The notes: generated by a model not told the origin, from the sequence alone. DNA of 64,000 nucleotides from a virus (IMGVR_UViG_3300048999_000056:48819-112818); one strand, 5' to 3'; shown: positions 4,879-39,094, counted from the first letter of the stretch. Made by a program: numbers and translations.

Positions 4879-7800
4879 ATGGCGTGGTCCTTCGTCGGTG
4901 CCGGCGCTTTAGCGTCCGTCACCACCACAGCGATATCGGTAGCAGAGCCCGCTGGTGTACAAGCCGGCGATCTTCTTGTTGCGCTCATATCGCATCGTGC
5001 CGCGTCGGGTGCCGCTTCGGTGGTGCTGCCGACTGGTTGGACTCTCGTTACTGAGCAGAAGGTCGGCAACACCACCGCCGCCAGCACGTTAGGCATCGGC
5101 AACGGCGTCATGGCCTACCGGGTCGCGACCGGAGCCGGTGGGCCGTGGAGCTTCACGGTTCCGACCGCGAACGTTGCGCTCGGTCGCATTCTTGTCTACC
5201 GCGGTCAGGACAAGCTCGCGTCGCCACTGTGTATGACACGCAGCACGACGACGGCAACCGCCACGACGAGCATCAGCGTTACTGGCCTAACAACGCCGAA
5301 CGCCAACTGTCTGATCATTCACGGTCTATGCGGCGCACAGAATGGCGCGATGTCGGCATTCGACGCCGCGACCGATCCAACGACTGCTAGCGGCACGGGC
5401 GGTCAAACAGGCGCTCCAACTGCCGGGACATGGCTGGAGCGAACCGATGACGCTACCGCGAATGGTTCCGATTGTAGTCTGGCAATTGCAGACGCGGTTC
5501 GGGCCACGTCGGGCGCCACAGGCAATTTCACCGCGACGGCGGCGCTGGGTTGTGGCTACGCCTCGCTCGTCGGCGTGTTCAAACTCGACGTTGCAATCCC
5601 AGCCGGCCAACGGCTGGTCACGCATTACATCATCGGAACGGGAACCGGCAGCTTCACGCCGCCGTCCACCGTCAACGCGATCGTCGAAGTATGGGGCGCG
5701 GGCGCCACTGGAAACACCGCGAGCGGCGTGGGCGGTAACGGTGCTGGTTGGTCACGGGATAGTAGCTACGCGCTAACAGCGGCAACGCCGGTCAACTTTT
5801 CGCTCGGTGCTCCCGGCGCGACCTCTGCGGCGGCCGGTGGCGATACTTGGTGGGCAACATCCGGCACGCTGATAGCGAACGGCGGCGGGTCCGCTACCGC
5901 GCGGATCGGCGACGTGACGTTTGTCGGTGGCGTGGCGAGCACCAACTCTGCCACCGGTAACACCGGGGGCGGTGGCGCAGCCGGTCCGTATGGACCTGGG
6001 CGAGCCTCTGGCAGTGCTGGCAGTGGTGGCGGAACGGGTGGCGGTGGTAACGGCGGCGGCACCGACTCAACAGCTTCCGCAACGGCAGCTGGCACCGCTG
6101 GCGGCAATGGTTTCGCTGGAACGGGCGGCGCTGCTGGCGTTGCAAATGGTAATGGTTCGCCGGGCGGTCCGGGCGCGGGCGGTGGCGGTGGCGGTAACAC
6201 GACAGGTCAAGGCGCTCGCGGTGGTGATGATTGGAGCAACGGCGGCGGCGGTGCGGGTGGCACAGGCAGCCTCGCCAATCATCCTACAACGGCGGTCGGC
6301 GGCACGCCGGGTGCTGGCGGTGCGGCGGCAAATGCGGCACTTGGGCGCGGCGGTTACAGCCTCGTCAAACTCAGCTATGTTGGGACCGACGATGACAGCC
6401 TGACAGTTGTCGGCTCGCTGTCGAACATCGTCTTCGCGCGACCGGGTGCAGCTCATATTGCCGGCACCGGCTCGATATCGGCCAATGCAACAGTCGTCAG
6501 TGGCGGTCCGACTACTTGGCAAGGGACTGCAACATTTGCTGGCGTAGCGTCGGTTAGTGCTGTCACTGCCTACGTCAAACCGCAACAATGGGACATCGGC
6601 AACTACTATCATCCCAACGTCACGCTGTCGGGCACGGGCGGAAACTTTACCGCGCTGCAGACGGGGAGCAGCGGCAACCGTGCATCGGTGGTTGCGACTG
6701 AGTTTTTCAATACCGGCAAATACTACTGGGAACTGCAGATCGATTCCACTGGCGGCGGTCAGTATGTCGGACTGGCGCGTGCAGCGTTCGATCCCAACGG
6801 CTTCGATTCCGCCTTGTATGCGACTGAGGTTACGTGGTGGACCTTTACCGCTGACTCATCCGGTCATATAGTTGCTGCTAACGTCGAGATCAGCGCCGGG
6901 GCACCGTTCTACACGACTGGCGATCGTGTCCAGTTTGCCTGGGATGCTACCAATCATCTGATATGGCTTAGAGTCAACAATGGCTCTTGGGCGAACGGCG
7001 GTGATCCGGCAGCCGGGACCAACGGTTACGATATCTCGTCCGTGACGGGACCTCTCGCTCCGGCGATCTCGCTGGGCGGCACGAATGATCAGATATCAAC
7101 CAAGTTCGATCGTGCCTCGTGGTCCGGCACGGCGCCAGCCGGTTTCGCTCAATTCGACCCTGTCATTCTACAGGGAACTGCAACGCTAGCCGGCACGGGC
7201 TCGCGGACCTTTAACGCCACGCACACACCGGCAGGCACAGCAACAATTGGCGGTGCCGGTTTGCTTAGCGTCTCTGCGCGGATCATTGACCGGATCGACC
7301 CTGTCACGCTGGCAGGTATCGGCTCAATTACTGCAAACGCTACGCATACGCCGGCAGGCACAGCCGTTTTCGCCGGTCTAGGTTCGTTAACTGTTGACGC
7401 AACTGTTGTTCTCGGCACTGTCACGTGGCAGGGCTCGGCAACGTTTGCAGGCGTCGGCACGCTCAGTGTCAATGCGACGCACACGCCAGCCGGACAGGCG
7501 ACGATCAACGGCGCCGGTTCGCTTGCTGTCACTGCGACGCTGATCGATGCTATAGACGCTCTTACGCTGCCAGGTGCCGGCTCTCTCAGCGTCAACGCCA
7601 CGCATACGCCGGCTGCGGCTGCGACGTTTGCCGGTATCGGCTCGGTCACGCTCAATGCGACTTTGACTGCTCCGGTCACGGCGAATATCAACGGCACCGG
7701 ATCGGTCACTGCCAATGCTACGCACACGCCGGCTGCGACGGCATCGCTCAACGGTGTCGGATCGATAGCAGCAACCGCGACGGTCATCGCTCGTGCCTCA

Positions 7801-12438: not shown

Positions 12439-13445
12439 GCCTGCGCTGACGGGTCGCACCCTGCCGCGCCTAACCGTGTCGGGCGATGCCTGCCAAGCCC
12501 TGACAATCCACGTCTTGCGTTGCCGTGCCGTGCCGGGCCTGCCGGGTCAAGCCGGGACCTTCCGAGCGTTGCGATGCCGCGTCTGCCCCGCCATGACATG
12601 CCTTGCCGTTGCGAGCGTAGCCTTGCCTGCGCTGTCTTGCCGTGACGGACCTAGCCGCGCTCTGCCCTGTCGAGCCTGCCATGCCATGCCCTGACGATCT
12701 ATGCCATCCCGAGCCGAGCCTAGCCAGCCACGTCAAGCCGTGCCTTGACACGTCTTTCCAAGCCTAGCCGAGCCGAGTCTGCGTTGACCTGCCAATCGAT
12801 ACCTCGCCGTGCCAAGCCGCGTCTGCCCTGCCTCGGCCTGCCGAACGATACCATGCCCTGCAGACCCATGCCTGCGATGCCGGAACGTGCCCTGCGCTCT
12901 CGTGCCACGTCACCACGTACCCTGCCTGCGCCGCCTCAACGCGTCCTACCGAGCCAAGCCGAGACAAGCCTGCGATGCGGCGCCTAGCCTCGCCTCGACG
13001 GATGTCGCCTCGCCTAGCCTGCGTTGCCACAACCAGCCCCCCGAGATCAGGCGAACCCAGCGTGTCCAAGCCTGCCACGCGCCGCCCGGACTGCCCTTGC
13101 CTATCGGTGTCGCCCCGAGCCGGCCGCGCCCTGCCTCGCCCAGTCTCGTCCTGCCAGGACGTGCCTTGCCTGCCCCGTCGTGACGTGCCCAGCGCGGCGT
13201 AGCCGAGCCTGCCATGCCATGACCGGTCTAGTCCCGCCTAACCATAGCGGGCCGCGCCTGCCCCGCCATCCGGGCGTCGCCTTGCCGAGCCTTGTCGAAC
13301 CATGCCTGCGACGCCTTGCCACGGCGTTACGCGTCTAGCCGCACCTTGCCGAGCCTGCGACGCGATGCCTTGCCAAGCCACGTCGCAACCCGCCAAGCCT
13401 GCGTTGCCATCCCTCGAATTGCCCAGCCAACGCTAACCCTGCCCT
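12439..13445 (-). repeat. Array 1: 21 units of (NN-GGC)7-10 + AGGC; candidate guide-RNA array of the adjacent RAMP protein
   Basis: + strand GCCTGC-type boundaries at 12439,12488,12537,12581,12625,12674,12723,12777,12821,12870,12924,12968,13017,13070,13119,13168,13207,13256,13304,13353,13397; 18 of 20 intervals equal 5n+4; interior is GCC-NN pentamers. Confidence 0.9.
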
Positions 13446-13458
13446 GTACACAAGGCGA

Positions 13459-13474
13459 GGCGGCCGAAGCCGCC
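13459..13474 (-). promoter_or_regulatory. C(UUCG)G tetraloop hairpin in leader of array 1
   Basis: - strand GGCGGC-TTCG-GCCGCC, 13 nt upstream of first array pentamer. Confidence 0.7.
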
Positions 13475-13499
13475 CCGTTAGTGTTAGATATTATGACTG

Positions 13500-14021
13500 C
13501 TACTGTCTGCGGCGCTTTCGCCCTGCCTTGCGGTCGGGGCCTTTGCGTGCTGGCGACTTCACCGTGCCACCTTCCAGCTGATCCTGCCGGCGCCGCTCCA
13601 GTTCGGCAATCCGCTGGCCTTCATCGAACAGGCGCGACATTTCGGTCAACCGCTGATACTTGATATGGAAGCGGTTGAAGTCATCTAGCGCGTCCTTCAA
13701 CATGACGCGCCGCAAGTCACGATCGGGCAGAATGCGATCAAGCGGACGATAACCGCCGCCCGCGTGACGATCGATACTCAACGAGATCATGGTGCGCTGC
13801 CCGGTATCGTCAACAACATGAATGGCAATCAGGCGGCGTATCTGGTCGAGCCGATAGCGGTATCCTGCCTTGGCGTCTTCCCATTCGAGTTCTTCATGCA
13901 GTGCCGAGCTGGGATGCGTAGCAGCCCAGTCGTGCACCACCTTGACGTAGAGATTGCCATCGGGATCGAGCCGGCGCAGCGCCTCCAGTTCCTGCTGGAT
14001 GCGCGCCGTGGATTCAAGCAT
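13500..14021 (-). CDS. Conserved phage protein associated with RAMP/array locus
   Basis: GGAGG RBS before ATG 14021; ELEAL....G.L....V..WA...P.S.LH..LEW.D..A...YRL.Q.R.LI motif; basic C-terminal tail. Confidence 0.75.
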   Translation of the reverse strand: MLESTARIQQELEALRRLDPDGNLYVKVVHDWAATHPSSALHEELEWEDAKAGYRYRLDQIRRLIAIHVVDDTGQRTMISLSIDRHAGGGYRPLDRILPDRDLRRVMLKDALDDFNRFHIKYQRLTEMSRLFDEGQRIAELERRRQDQLEGGTVKSPARKGPDRKAGRKRRRQ

Positions 14022-14262
14022 TGTTCGGCCTCCTGGTTGAACGCGCGGCCCAGCCGATAGCGTTCGCCAGATCGCCTTTTTCCATTGCCAGCTCATACTT
14101 GTTGAGTGCGAGCATGTGTTGCGTGAACTTGCGCTCGCGCCGTGCCCATGTGCCAATACGCCGCTTCCTCCGAGGCGGCGTTTCCTGCAATGCTTTCTCC
14201 TTCAGCGCCTCTTGTGCGAGGCGCTGCCCTTCACGGGTTATGTTTTTCAACCGGCTAAGCAT
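14014..14262 (-). CDS. Small basic helical protein, translationally coupled in RAMP operon
   Basis: 82 aa; 8-nt overlaps with both neighbouring genes. Confidence 0.6.
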   Translation of the reverse strand: MLSRLKNITREGQRLAQEALKEKALQETPPRRKRRIGTWARRERKFTQHMLALNKYELAMEKGDLANAIGWAARSTRRPNNA

Positions 14263-15265
14263 TGCTGTTGACTACGTCCCACAAGCCCCAGTCCAGACCG
14301 TTGGAGTTCGGCGAGGAGGGCCGCCCCTCGCCGACGCCGACCTGCATACCGGCAATCGCCATCAGGTTGACCACGTCGGTTGCCGAGAACTGCCGCGCGT
14401 CCCAGCGGACGGTCACGGCGGCGTTCCACTTTTCCCACATAGGCCGGTGGCGGATATCGGCAACGCCTGATGCGTTGCGGGCTGGCGCCTCGTGCAGCCG
14501 TGGCGTGCCGTTGATCTTGACGAGCGGCTGCCCATCCTGATCGAGTCCGTCCGGCACGATGAACAACGACAGCTTGGCGCGTGTCATCGTGAAGCCGGCA
14601 AGGCGGCACGCGTCAATCATCGCGTTGCGGAAAGCCGGCGCCGGAATGCCGTGCCATCCGTCACGCGCGATATGCTGCGCCAGACGGTAGATTTCTTCGA
14701 AGTCCTTCGGCTCGCGACGGCGGCGTGACTTTTCGCCCTGCGAACCCGCCTTCTGCCGCTCCACCATCATGTTGACGGCTTTCTGGCTGAATTTGTGTTG
14801 CACGTAAGGCGTAGAGCCTCTGATGTAGACGATGCCGCGATCGAACTGCGGCGGTTGAATGACGACGCGCGTCACCTTGCCGCTCAACACGCCAACCGTG
14901 CCTTGCTCCATGGTGCTGTCGAGCGTTTCGATCGGGATCGGCGAGGCGGGTATCCTGCCGAAATTGTCGGTGTTGCGCATTGACGGCCCGGCTACTGCAC
15001 CCTTGCCGTTCTTGCCCTTGCCGTTCCGACCGATCGTCGCCTCACGTTCCGCCAGCAGGTCCGCAACCGGATTGCCGCCAGCGTGCGCCGCCTCGAATGC
15101 GGCTTTCTGCTGTCTCTCGTCGCGTGACATAGGTCCGCGCTTGCCGGGCTCGCGTGCCCAAACGGCCGGCTCAACGTCTTCGACTGCGGGAGCTGTCCCC
15201 CTCTGCGCCAGCTTCTTGGCCTTCAATGCCTTCTTGGCGCTTTTCTTGTCCTTCAACGTCGTCAT
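14255..15265 (-). CDS. Stand-alone Cas7/RAMP-superfamily-like protein
   Basis: IVYIRGSTPYVQH (first RRM strand), GIPAPAFRNAMIDAC (IPxSSxKGxxR-like), C-terminal G-loop GVGEGRP....GLDWGLWDV; RBS GAGGGA before ATG 15265. Confidence 0.75.
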   Translation of the reverse strand: MTTLKDKKSAKKALKAKKLAQRGTAPAVEDVEPAVWAREPGKRGPMSRDERQQKAAFEAAHAGGNPVADLLAEREATIGRNGKGKNGKGAVAGPSMRNTDNFGRIPASPIPIETLDSTMEQGTVGVLSGKVTRVVIQPPQFDRGIVYIRGSTPYVQHKFSQKAVNMMVERQKAGSQGEKSRRRREPKDFEEIYRLAQHIARDGWHGIPAPAFRNAMIDACRLAGFTMTRAKLSLFIVPDGLDQDGQPLVKINGTPRLHEAPARNASGVADIRHRPMWEKWNAAVTVRWDARQFSATDVVNLMAIAGMQVGVGEGRPSSPNSNGLDWGLWDVVNSNA

Positions 15266-15319
15266 GTCGTTTTCCCTCATGTATGCGATGGGCGCGGCTT
15301 TTATTGCCCGCCATCCTAT

Positions 15320-15345
15320 ATATACAAAACGCCTATTCGTGTTGA
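15320..15345 (-). promoter_or_regulatory. Phage promoter motif TCAACACG-N12-GTATAT upstream of RAMP operon
   Basis: Same bipartite motif recurs at 18073-18099 and 22926-22953 upstream of - strand genes. Confidence 0.65.
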
Positions 15346-15914
15346 ACTCGCGCAATGGCGGCGTCCATTTCTTCTTGGCTGACCATGTTGCTTTGCTCCT
15401 CGATCCATTCCTCGCCGGGCTTCGTCGGCGGTATCAGCAACATGGCGCTTTCACCCTCGCGGTTCGTCGTGCGGACCGACGCCGGAATCCCGTGGCGCTG
15501 CCATATCTTCAACAGATAAGCGCGCAATGTCGGGTCGCGGTGTGCGTCAGGACGCGCGGGATCGAGCCATATCTGCAGACTGAGCATTGGCTGCTCGTTG
15601 ATCGTGAATGCCTGCAGATCGGGGCTGATGATGTAACCGCCCTGGTCGGGGCGCTGCAGGCCCGAGGTATCGGGATCGAACAGCCAGCGACAGGACCACG
15701 CCATACAGACGCGTGGCCGGCTGGCGTAGATGCCGCAGCGTCGGTGATCGGACAGATGCGGGCAGGGCACTCCGGCCGGTTTCTCGCCTACCGGCGGGGG
15801 CAATGAAACCGGGACATGGGTGCAGCACATGGTACACGGACCGCAGCGCCGCTGCATGCCCTTGACCTTGATACGATCGCCGAACATCGGCATGTCGGGG
15901 TGCGCGCCAATCAT
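15333..15914 (-). CDS. YkgJ-like CxxCxxCC Zn/Fe-binding protein
   Basis: CGPCTMCC...CPHL....CGIY.SRP.VC. Confidence 0.75.
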   Translation of the reverse strand: MIGAHPDMPMFGDRIKVKGMQRRCGPCTMCCTHVPVSLPPPVGEKPAGVPCPHLSDHRRCGIYASRPRVCMAWSCRWLFDPDTSGLQRPDQGGYIISPDLQAFTINEQPMLSLQIWLDPARPDAHRDPTLRAYLLKIWQRHGIPASVRTTNREGESAMLLIPPTKPGEEWIEEQSNMVSQEEMDAAIARVQHE

Positions 15915-38397: not shown

Positions 38398-38452
38398 AGA
38401 CACCCTCCTGATTTGGTAGCCTCTCAGAAGGGATATACGAAACGCCGAAAAA

Positions 38453-39081
38453 GCCTGCGCTGCCGCTGCCCGCCCTGCCTTGCCGAACCGGGTCATGCCA
38501 AGCCAGCCCTGCCGGTCCGAGTGCTGCCCTGGCTAGCGTAGACCTGCCACGCCGGCCATGCCCTGCCTTGCCTTCCCGGACGTGCCGAGCGTGGCCTGCC
38601 ATGCCGAGCGTTGACCTATCTTGCCGCCCTGGCCGTTCCGAGCCAAGCCTGCCGATCCGCGTCGATCCGCGCCAAACCTAGCCGCGCCTGCCACGTCTCG
38701 CCACGGCGGGCGGGTCGATGCCATCCCGCGCCATGCCCGCCATGTCAAGCCTTTACGTGCCCTGCCTAGCCGATACGAGCGGTGCCTGCGTTGCCGAACG
38801 TTTGCATGCCCCGTCTAGCCAATACAGGTCGCGCCTGCGTTGCCAAATCGCACCCCGTCTAGCCGACACAAGCCCCGCCTGCGATACCGAGCCATACGCA
38901 GACTGGCCTAGCCGTGCCCTGACGAGCCTGCCCCGATCAGACCTCGTCGGTCCATGCCTAGCCGAGCGCAGCCTGCGTTGACGATCCGCGTCTTGCCCGG
39001 TCAACCCGTGCCATGCCTAGACCACCACGCCTGCCAAGCGTTGCCGATACGAGCGCTTCCTTGCCGGGCCGAGCCGCGCCT
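38453..39081 (-). repeat. Array 2: 13 units with same GGC-NN/AGGC grammar as array 1 (orphan)
   Basis: Boundaries at 38453,38502,38551,38594,38647,38686,38735,38784,38833,38877,38926,38971,39029 plus terminal GCCT 39078; lengths 49,49,43,53,39,49,49,49,44,49,45,58,49. Confidence 0.9.
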
Positions 39082-39094
39082 GATTCCTATATAC

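What the first reader, a model, noticed from the sequence alone, without database searches (positions are those of the whole stretch)
14255..15265. Stand-alone Cas7-like RAMP with a basic, disordered N-terminal arm of about 130 aa
The C-terminal ~200 aa carry the three RAMP hallmarks in order (IxGxTPY strand, IPAPAFRNAM helix, terminal G-loop GVGEGRP...GxWGxWxV). The N-terminus (KDKKSAKKALKAKK..., GRNGKGKNGKG) is Lys-rich and likely unstructured. Inference: it adds non-specific DNA affinity or partner binding. A minimal solo RAMP in a phage bears on the origin of class 1 CRISPR effectors.
Basis: partly seen in the sequence, partly recalled or inferred. Interest (0 to 1): 0.8.

Follow-up and report, generated by a model that had tools for sequence, protein, structure and literature searches.

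The report
Phage Vipr protein with long tail

Summary
The ORF at 14255-15265 (minus strand, 336 aa) is real. Residues 137-335 fold confidently as a single-RRM RAMP. All 50 best solved-structure matches are Cas7-family subunits (Z 9.3-11.2). A family profile aligns over the full length of the Vipr protein of Escherichia phage SUSP1 (PDB 36pp; hhalign 95%, E 2e-8). The G-loop and thumb arginine are almost invariant in 102 homologues.

The gene is not functionally alone. It heads an operon: vipr, a small ORF, a conserved accessory gene (vap), then a 1-kb co-directional array of GGY-NN pentamers cut into 5n+4-nt units. This is the "staggered" vrRNA array of the VIPR preprints. The 113-kb phage has four more such arrays, about 4.2 kb in all. 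77 of 80 related viral loci have the same gene-plus-array layout.

The N-terminal arm (about 136 aa, net charge +9) is probably translated. It is the longest of 269 family members (median 29 aa) and has no homologue of its own. Its function was not tested.

No natural targets were found.

This scan has reported VIPR loci before in at least 16 other genomes. Verdict: new member of a known kind, moderate to low interest.

The parts
14255..15265 (-). vipr gene, 336 aa plus stop
   Evidence: ORF and translation. phrog_4652 match at E 3e-14. Family of 2418 clusters at 50% identity. Homology to SUSP1 Vipr.
14858..15265 (-). N-terminal arm, aa 1-136: basic, mostly low-confidence, lineage-specific
   Evidence: pLDDT profile. 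Charge and GC3. Longest of 269 family members. No homologue of its own. Not conserved even in 64-68% identical relatives.
14258..14857 (-). RAMP core, aa 137-336: RRM, helical bundle, thumb, G-loop
   Evidence: Ten-residue pLDDT block means of 82-98, mostly above 90. VIA-align Z 9.3-11.2 to Csm3, Cmr4, type VII Cas7 and Cas7-11. Foldseek probability 1.0 for most of the top rows, 0.95-1.0 for nearly all Cas matches.
14426..14506 (-). Thumb hairpin, aa 254-280, with R274 (equivalent of SUSP1 R138)
   Evidence: Alignment to SUSP1. R274 present in 100 of 102 homologues. Role of R138 taken from bioRxiv 10.64898/2026.04.26.720927.
14285..14350 (-). G-loop, aa 306-327 (GMQVGVGEGRP...G.DWG)
   Evidence: G306, R315, G323 and G327 invariant; G310 in 99 and G314 in 101 of 102. 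Aligns with SUSP1 GVGDWRP.
15319..15325 (-). GTATATA promoter-like motif upstream of vipr, with TTCAAC about 17 nt further upstream
   Evidence: 10 copies in the window against 0.98 expected, on the strand of the local genes. The same motif precedes the four orphan arrays. Function as a promoter is inferred.
15274..15278 (-). Shine-Dalgarno GAGGG for the ATG at 15265
   Evidence: Read from the sequence.
14014..14262 (-). orf82: small basic ORF that overlaps the vipr stop and the vap start by 8 nt each; uncertain gene
   Evidence: ORF list. GC3 0.66. No homologue in 80 related loci. No Pfam match.
13500..14021 (-). vap-like accessory gene, 173 aa, AGGAGG SD upstream
   Evidence: Called as a 173-aa protein in the collection. 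Homologue directly next to vipr in 62 of 80 viral loci. Also next to vipr in Cy-LDV1 and Donkeykong. Model pLDDT 85.5. Weak winged-helix matches for aa 1-97.
13457..13476 (-). GC-rich stem-loop (GGGGCGGC-TTCG-GCCGCCTC) between the vap stop and the array
   Evidence: Read from the sequence. Function unknown.
12441..13448 (-). vrRNA array D: about 21 units of 39-54 nt, each made of GGYNN pentamers and ending SGCA before the next GGC (5n+4 grammar)
   Evidence: Period-5 statistics at 0.5-0.76 against a background of 0.22. Dynamic-programming parse. All NN strings distinct.
38452..39081 (-). Orphan vrRNA array E: about 13 units, same grammar, preceded by GTATATA at 39088-39094

Best explanation
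The gene encodes a Vipr protein, the single-RRM RAMP of a VIPR (Viral Interference Programmable Repeat) system.

By homology with the SUSP1 system, one protomer binds each GGY-NN pentamer of a guide RNA. The G-loop, the thumb arginine and the beta-sheet histidine hold the GGY bases. The free NN dinucleotides then pair with double-stranded DNA, skipping every third base. The resulting filament of 8-11 protomers blocks transcription of a rival mobile element.

In this phage the guides come from five 'staggered' arrays. A 4-nt step (SGCA followed by GGC) breaks the 5-nt register, and I infer that this punctuates one guide from the next. A conserved accessory gene, probably a winged-helix DNA binder, follows vipr.

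The 136-aa basic N-terminal arm is a lineage-specific, fast-evolving extension. My best guess is that it adds non-specific nucleic-acid affinity to each protomer of the filament.

Shown here: the fold, the homology, residue conservation, the arrays, and the synteny. Inferred: RNA binding, the DNA-targeting rule, silencing, the punctuation role of the 4-nt step, and the role of the arm.
For: Fold:
- AlphaFold2 model with mean pLDDT 81.6; core block means 82-98, mostly above 90.
- All 50 best VIA-align rows are Cas7-family chains, Z 9.3-11.2, spanning aa 137-335.
- Foldseek probability 1.0 for most of the top rows.

Homology to a characterised Vipr:
- Profile A1 against PDB 36pp 'SUSP1 Vipr protein', E 3.2e-6.
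- hhalign against the SUSP1 gene product: probability 95.3%, E 2.3e-8, 171 columns covering residues 2-188 of 195.

Functional residues named in bioRxiv 10.64898/2026.04.26.720927 map as follows: H17 to H157, K33 to K172, R39 to R182, R138 to R274, D177 to E313, R179 to R315.

Guide arrays:
- Period-5 GGY signal of 0.5-0.83 against a background of 0.22, found only in five tracts of the 112.8-kb genome.
- Units of 5n+4 nt.
- 54 of 54 cleanly parsed units have different NN strings.
- The grammar matches the 'staggered, 1-nt overlapping' arrays of fig. S18 of bioRxiv 10.64898/2026.04.26.720920.

Synteny:
- 77 of 80 related IMG/VR loci have a co-directional array beside the gene, and 62 of 80 have the vap homologue.
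- The same layout occurs in phages Cy-LDV1, Donkeykong and ODay.
- The array detector also recovers the published SUSP1 vrRNA positions, which serves as a positive control.
Against:
- SUSP1 W178, which stacks on G2, is Gly here and in 101 of 102 relatives. GGY recognition must therefore differ in detail.
- H157 is conserved in only 33 of 102 relatives; 35 have Asn.
- The vap here shows no sequence similarity to SUSP1 vap1.
- The units lack the structured 3' tail of SUSP1 vrRNAs.
- No natural target was found by the 1-nt-skip rule.
- Which of the seven published VIPR types this is could not be determined, because no supplementary data are held.
Confidence: 0.9

Rival explanations
1. It is a Cas7 backbone subunit of a reduced, phage-borne CRISPR-Cas system (for example type IV or a mini type I or III) and uses ordinary crRNAs.
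For: The best structural matches are Csm3, Cmr4 and type VII Cas7.
Against: - No match to any Cas7/RAMP model in Pfam, NCBIfam or PADLOC.
- Only one RAMP gene in the complete 112.8-kb genome.
- The repeats beside the gene are 5-nt GGY-NN units, not repeat-spacer units.
- The protein has a single RRM and aligns end to end with SUSP1 Vipr.
Confidence: 0.03
2. It has a RAMP fold but a different job, for example a Cas6-like RNA-processing enzyme, an RNA chaperone or an anti-CRISPR decoy. The pentamer arrays would then serve an unrelated purpose.
For: - A shared fold does not prove a shared function.
- The Trp that stacks on G2 in SUSP1 is missing.
- No targets were found.
Against: - The gene and a co-directional GGY array travel together in 77 of 80 loci, and in phages of Actinobacteria, cyanobacteria and E. 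coli.
- The thumb Arg and G-loop Arg that hold GGY in SUSP1 are 100 of 102 and 102 of 102 conserved.
Confidence: 0.05
3. The long arm is an annotation artefact. Translation starts at an internal Met (Met46 or Met96), giving a Vipr of ordinary length (about 240-290 aa).
For: - The median N-terminal extension in the family is 29 aa.
- Shorter homologues begin with sequences resembling aa 79-104 of this protein.
- The arm has no homologue of its own.
Against: - The ATG at 15265 has a GAGGG SD 8 nt upstream, while Met46 and Met96 have none.
- GC3 is 0.76 in the arm frame against 0.52-0.62 in the other two frames.
- The promoter-like motif lies only about 55 nt upstream of this ATG.
- The four closest relatives also carry 112-135-aa basic extensions.
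Confidence: 0.12

Closest known systems
Vipr of the type II VIPR system of Escherichia phage SUSP1 (PDB 36pp; bioRxiv 10.64898/2026.04.26.720920 and 10.64898/2026.04.26.720927)
   Same: - Single-RRM RAMP with helical bundle, thumb and G-loop.
- Full-length profile alignment.
- Conserved thumb Arg, G-loop Arg and acidic residue, and bundle Lys/Arg.
- Same gene order: vipr, then an accessory gene, then a co-directional GGY-NN array.
- Phage-borne.
   Different: - Only about 21% identity over the aligned columns.
- G-loop Trp178 is replaced by Gly.
- A 136-aa basic N-terminal arm, where SUSP1 starts at beta1.
- The accessory protein is unrelated in sequence.
- Guides are 39-59-nt abutting units with a 4-nt register break and no pseudoknot tail.
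- About 85 guides in five arrays, against four vrRNAs in SUSP1.
VIPR systems with 'staggered' vrRNA arrays (fig. S18 of bioRxiv 10.64898/2026.04.26.720920)
   Same: Adjacent guides overlap by 1 nt, which is the 5n+4 spacing seen here.
   Different: The figure and data tables are not held, so I could not check whether this Vipr clade or type is the one shown.
CRISPR Cas7-family backbone subunits (Csm3, Cmr4, type VII Cas7, Cas7-11 domains)
   Same: Fold at Z 9.3-11.2 over about 150 aligned residues. The G-loop and thumb sit at the same places.
   Different: - 7-12% sequence identity.
- No HMM match.
- No CRISPR array or cas genes.
- A 5-nt periodicity of RNA binding, against 6-nt in Cas7 filaments (the 6-nt figure is from the preprint).
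phrog_4652, including Mycobacterium phage Donkeykong gp49, Gordonia phage ODay gp19 and Cyanophage Cy-LDV1 g34, all annotated as hypothetical
   Same: Direct sequence family: E 3e-14 to the PHROG, 32-53% identity by tblastn. The same staggered arrays lie beside the gene.
   Different: Those proteins are 208-248 aa with short N-termini. None is annotated as Vipr.

Membership tests
VIPR system (Vipr + vrRNA + Vap) | Vipr protein: minimal single-RRM RAMP with G-loop and thumb | tested here: met
   AlphaFold2 model. Cas7-family matches at Z 9.3-11.2. G-loop nearly invariant in 102 homologues.
VIPR system (Vipr + vrRNA + Vap) | Sequence homology to an experimentally characterised Vipr | tested here: met
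   hmmsearch E 3.2e-6 to PDB 36pp. hhalign probability 95.3%, E 2.3e-8, over residues 2-188 of the 195-aa SUSP1 Vipr.
VIPR system (Vipr + vrRNA + Vap) | Residues that hold the GGY bases (SUSP1 H17, R138, D177, W178, R179) | tested here: inconclusive
   H157, R274, E313 and R315 correspond. W178 is Gly314 here and in 101 of 102 relatives. H157 is His in 33 and Asn in 35 of 102.
VIPR system (Vipr + vrRNA + Vap) | Co-directional tandem GGY/NN pentamer repeats next to vipr, with hypervariable NN | tested here: met
   Array at 12441-13448 on the minus strand. Period-5 fraction 0.5-0.76 against 0.22 background. Parse into 8-11-pentamer units. 54 of 54 NN strings distinct. 77 of 80 related loci have such an array.
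VIPR system (Vipr + vrRNA + Vap) | Accessory vap gene beside vipr, predicted to interact with DNA | tested here: inconclusive
   A conserved neighbour is present in 62 of 80 loci. Its winged-helix resemblance is weak: Foldseek E 0.3-1, VIA Z 5.9-7.4 for aa 1-97. It shows no similarity to SUSP1 vap1.
VIPR system (Vipr + vrRNA + Vap) | vrRNAs are expressed and co-purify with Vipr; DNA is recognised by the 1-nt-skip rule | not testable with these tools
Searches for natural targets were empty or at chance level.
CRISPR-Cas Cas7 (RAMP backbone subunit) | Encoded with a CRISPR repeat-spacer array and other cas genes | tested here: not met
   Only one RAMP gene in the complete genome. The repeats are 5-nt units, not repeat-spacer units. 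The vipr product has no PADLOC match, and the neighbours scanned have no cas match in PHROGs or Pfam.
CRISPR-Cas Cas7 (RAMP backbone subunit) | Match to a curated Cas7/RAMP sequence model | tested here: not met
   No Pfam, NCBIfam or PADLOC match.

The most novel reading that the evidence does not exclude
The 136-aa polycationic arm, the longest in the family and shared only with a few close relatives, gives this Vipr clade a property that the published systems lack. Eight to eleven arms per filament would bridge or condense DNA, or recruit a host or phage factor. That would turn a simple roadblock into a spreading, chromatin-like silencer. Together with a repertoire of about 85 guides spread over five arrays, it would make this phage an unusually heavily armed VIPR carrier.
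Probability: 0.12. Interest if true: 0.55.

Novelty: new member of a known kind. Interest (0 to 1): 0.3.

Why it matters
The result confirms, from raw sequence, that VIPR systems are abundant. This one sub-family has 2418 clusters at 50% identity. It also occurs in cultured mycobacteriophages, Gordonia phages and a cyanophage, where the genes are still annotated as hypothetical and one array is annotated as a protein gene.

For VIPR specialists, this locus offers:
- a natural variant with a long basic N-terminal extension
- a G-loop without the stacking Trp
- tail-less staggered guides
- a very large guide repertoire, about 3.7% of the genome

These features could inform how filaments are delimited and how much of the protein can be decorated. 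The finding does not open a new question about the origin of CRISPR beyond what the 2026 preprints already state.

Tried and rejected
Target and expression searches:
- Natural targets by the 1-nt-skip rule. A local scan of 54 guides against the phage genome and 83 related loci (0.83 Mb) gave 29 hits at 85% or more NN match, against 28 for shuffled guides. The excess at skip 3 only reflects arrays matching arrays.
- Four exact-pattern scans of IMG/VR. Three found nothing. One found five copies of a single sequence from a 31-33% GC phage, which I judge to be chance.

- Vipr-Vap complex prediction.
- Fetching the contig of the closest relative, P0002.

Negative or limited results:
- Rfam families (for example hammerhead ribozymes between guides) and tRNAs in the window: none found.
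- The arm alone against 5.8 billion proteins matched only itself.
- The upstream CxxCxxCC-like gene (15333-15914) as part of the system: a homologue is present in only 2 of 80 loci and not adjacent, so I rejected it.
- The generic sigma-70 scan did not call the GTATATA motif.
- Assigning one of the seven VIPR types: not possible, because the preprint's supplementary data are not held.

Full report
**The observation**

The minus strand carries an open frame from ATG 15265 to the stop at 14255-14257, 336 aa. This ATG has a GAGGG Shine-Dalgarno 8 nt upstream. It lies about 55 nt downstream of a GTATATA motif that is tenfold over-represented in the window: 10 copies against 0.98 expected, always on the strand of the local genes. 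Third-position GC is 0.76 in codons 1-130 and 0.80 in the rest, against 0.52-0.62 in the other frames of the arm region. The long N-terminus is therefore probably translated. Pfam, NCBIfam and PADLOC give nothing. PHROGs gives phrog_4652, function unknown, over aa 146-330.

**The fold**

An AlphaFold2 model built on 102 homologues has a mean pLDDT of 81.6, with block means of 82-98 from aa 131 on, mostly above 90.
- Foldseek against the PDB returns Csm3, Cmr4, type VII Cas7, Cas7-11 and Cascade subunits, at probability 1.0 for most of the top rows.
- VIA-align gives Z 9.3-11.2 for the 50 best entries, all Cas7-family, spanning aa 137-335.
A beta-hairpin thumb lies at 256-277.

The best structural matches are RAMPs. 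The G-loop is nearly invariant across 102 homologues: G306, R315, G323 and G327 in 102 of 102, G314 in 101 of 102.

**What it is**

A profile of the family hits one solved structure, 36pp, 'SUSP1 Vipr protein' (E 3.2e-6). That led me to three 2026 preprints:
- bioRxiv 10.64898/2026.04.26.720920 describes VIPR systems. They consist of a minimal RAMP (Vipr), guide RNAs made of GGY-NN pentamers (vrRNAs), and an accessory gene (vap). They occur mostly in phages and silence rival elements by binding DNA with a one-base skip.
- 10.64898/2026.04.26.720927 gives the cryo-EM structures and names the residues that hold the GGY bases.
- 10.64898/2026.10.15.759431 shows the biology against a satellite and describes orphan vrRNAs.

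I located the SUSP1 gene in KT454805. Profile-profile alignment gave 95.3% probability, E 2.3e-8, over residues 2-188 of 195.

The SUSP1 functional residues map as follows:

| SUSP1 | This protein | Conservation in 102 homologues |
|---|---|---|
| H17 | H157 | His in 33, Asn in 35 |
| K33 | K172 | Lys or Arg in only 17 (most often Glu, 36) |
| R39 | R182 | Lys or Arg in 84 |
| R138 | R274 | 100 of 102 |
| D177 | E313 | Glu in 83 |
| W178 | G314 | Gly in 101 |
| R179 | R315 | 102 of 102 |

The stacking Trp178 is the one clear loss, so the detail of G2 recognition must differ.

**The surroundings**

The gene is not functionally alone.

Downstream on the same strand lie:
- a small ORF (14014-14262) that overlaps both neighbours by 8 nt;
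- a 173-aa gene (13500-14021) with an AGGAGG ribosome-binding site;
- a GC-rich hairpin;
- a 1-kb tract (12441-13448) in which GGY recurs every 5 nt. The fraction of successive GGY at multiples of 5 is 0.5-0.76, against 0.22 in the rest of the window.

A dynamic-programming parse splits the tract into units of 39, 44, 49 or 54 nt. Each starts with GGC and ends with SGCA directly before the next GGC. This 5n+4 spacing equals pentamer runs that overlap by one base. The preprint's fig. S18 legend describes the same thing for 'staggered' arrays.

The window lies in a 112,818-bp IMG/VR virus record rated complete, with a single vipr. The genome holds four more arrays of the same grammar, listed in genome coordinates:
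- 3.57-5.45 kb, plus strand
- 27.8-28.3 kb, minus strand
- 29.9-30.1 kb, minus strand
- 87.27-87.90 kb, minus strand (window 38452-39081)

Together with the array beside vipr, the arrays total about 4.2 kb, or 3.7% of the genome. All 54 cleanly parsed units have different NN strings. By length there are about 85 units. The GTATATA motif precedes vipr and each of the four orphan arrays.

**Comparative support**

- The family is very large: 2418 clusters at 50% identity, 1281 of them at E below 1e-10.
- Of 80 related IMG/VR loci, 77 have a co-directional period-5 GGY array next to the gene, and 62 have a homologue of the 173-aa protein beside it.
- The same holds in cultured phages: Cyanophage Cy-LDV1, Mycobacterium phage Donkeykong and Gordonia phage ODay. 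In all three the gene sits in the early region next to repressor or HTH genes.
- The detector also finds the published SUSP1 vrRNA positions, which serves as a positive control.

The accessory protein models well (pLDDT 85.5). Residues 1-97 weakly resemble winged-helix domains (Foldseek E 0.3-1; VIA Z 5.9-7.4). They are followed by a helical hairpin and a basic tail. This agrees with the preprint's statement that some vap proteins are winged-helix-like, but it does not prove it. The protein has no similarity to SUSP1 vap1.

**The arm**

- Across 269 family members, the stretch before the core has a median length of 29 aa and a 90th percentile of 55 aa. This protein has the longest, at 136 aa.
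- Only its four closest relatives have arms of 112-135 aa. These are also basic (net +8 to +14) but cannot be aligned with it.
- The arm alone finds nothing else among 5.8 billion proteins.
- Short basic N-termini are general in the family: 81% of extensions of 25 aa or more are net positive.
- Many members share a short R-G-x-I-P-P-like motif about 25 aa before beta1. Here it reads FGRIPASP.

The arm is therefore a fast-evolving, lineage-specific, largely disordered polycation. Added non-specific nucleic-acid affinity is a reasonable guess, but nothing here tests it.

**Mechanism: what is shown and what is inferred**

Shown here:
- the RAMP fold
- homology to Vipr
- conserved GGY-contact residues
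- guide-like arrays with variable NN
- conserved synteny

Inferred from the SUSP1 work:
- one protomer per pentamer
- pairing with DNA that skips one base
- transcriptional silencing of rivals

My own inference: the 4-nt step breaks the register, so it delimits filaments, given that these guides lack a structured tail.

**What failed**

- No natural target emerged.
- Expression could not be examined.
- The VIPR type could not be assigned.

**Verdict**

This is a new member of a known kind. This scan has already reported VIPR loci in at least 16 other genomes. Other notes on this same genome describe the arrays. I found the arrays independently and confirmed their 5n+4 grammar.

Noticed in passing
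L002:4444-4830 (Mycobacterium phage Donkeykong, NC_051648, annotated gp48): The annotated 128-aa 'hypothetical protein' gp48, directly upstream of the vipr homologue gp49, is almost entirely a GGCNN staggered array: units of 49-59 nt ending in GGCA before the next GGC. It is probably a vrRNA array annotated as a protein gene.
   Followed up: partly
L003:5596-5760 and L001:6632-6825, 7428-7557: Gordonia phage ODay and Cyanophage Cy-LDV1 carry the same staggered GGY-NN arrays next to their phrog_4652 genes, which are annotated as hypothetical.
   Followed up: partly
same genome, outside the window: genome 3570-5445 (+), 27817-28320 (-), 29900-30112 (-): Three further orphan arrays with the same 5n+4 grammar, each preceded by the GTATATA motif. 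The first is 1.9 kb with about 38 units.
   Followed up: partly
window 15319, 21005, 22925, 26424, 34880, 39088, 53999 (-); 56128, 57630, 61663 (+): GTATATA occurs 10 times against 0.98 expected, on the strand of the local genes and mostly in intergenic positions. A TTGAAC-like hexamer often lies about 17 nt upstream. It is probably a phage promoter element.
   Followed up: partly
window 14014-14262 (-): An 82-aa basic ORF overlaps the vipr stop and the vap start by 8 nt each. It has no homologue in 80 related loci and no Pfam match. It may be a lineage-specific third gene or a chance frame.
   Followed up: partly
window 15333-15914 (-): The gene upstream of vipr encodes a 193-aa protein with a weak CxxCxxCC (PF03692) match, below the cut-off, and a phrog_9155 match. 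It is not syntenic with vipr in relatives.
   Followed up: partly
genome 4776-4898 (outside the window, array A): Two adjacent guides share their first six pentamers almost exactly: the NN strings AC AG GA AT TC CC and AC AA GA AT CC CC. This looks like a duplicated guide that then diverged.
   Followed up: no
window 14950-14975 (-), aa 98-106 of the protein: A short motif before the RAMP core (here FGRIPASP; D-L-R-G-K-I-P-P in many homologues) is conserved in many family members but absent from SUSP1 Vipr.
   Followed up: no
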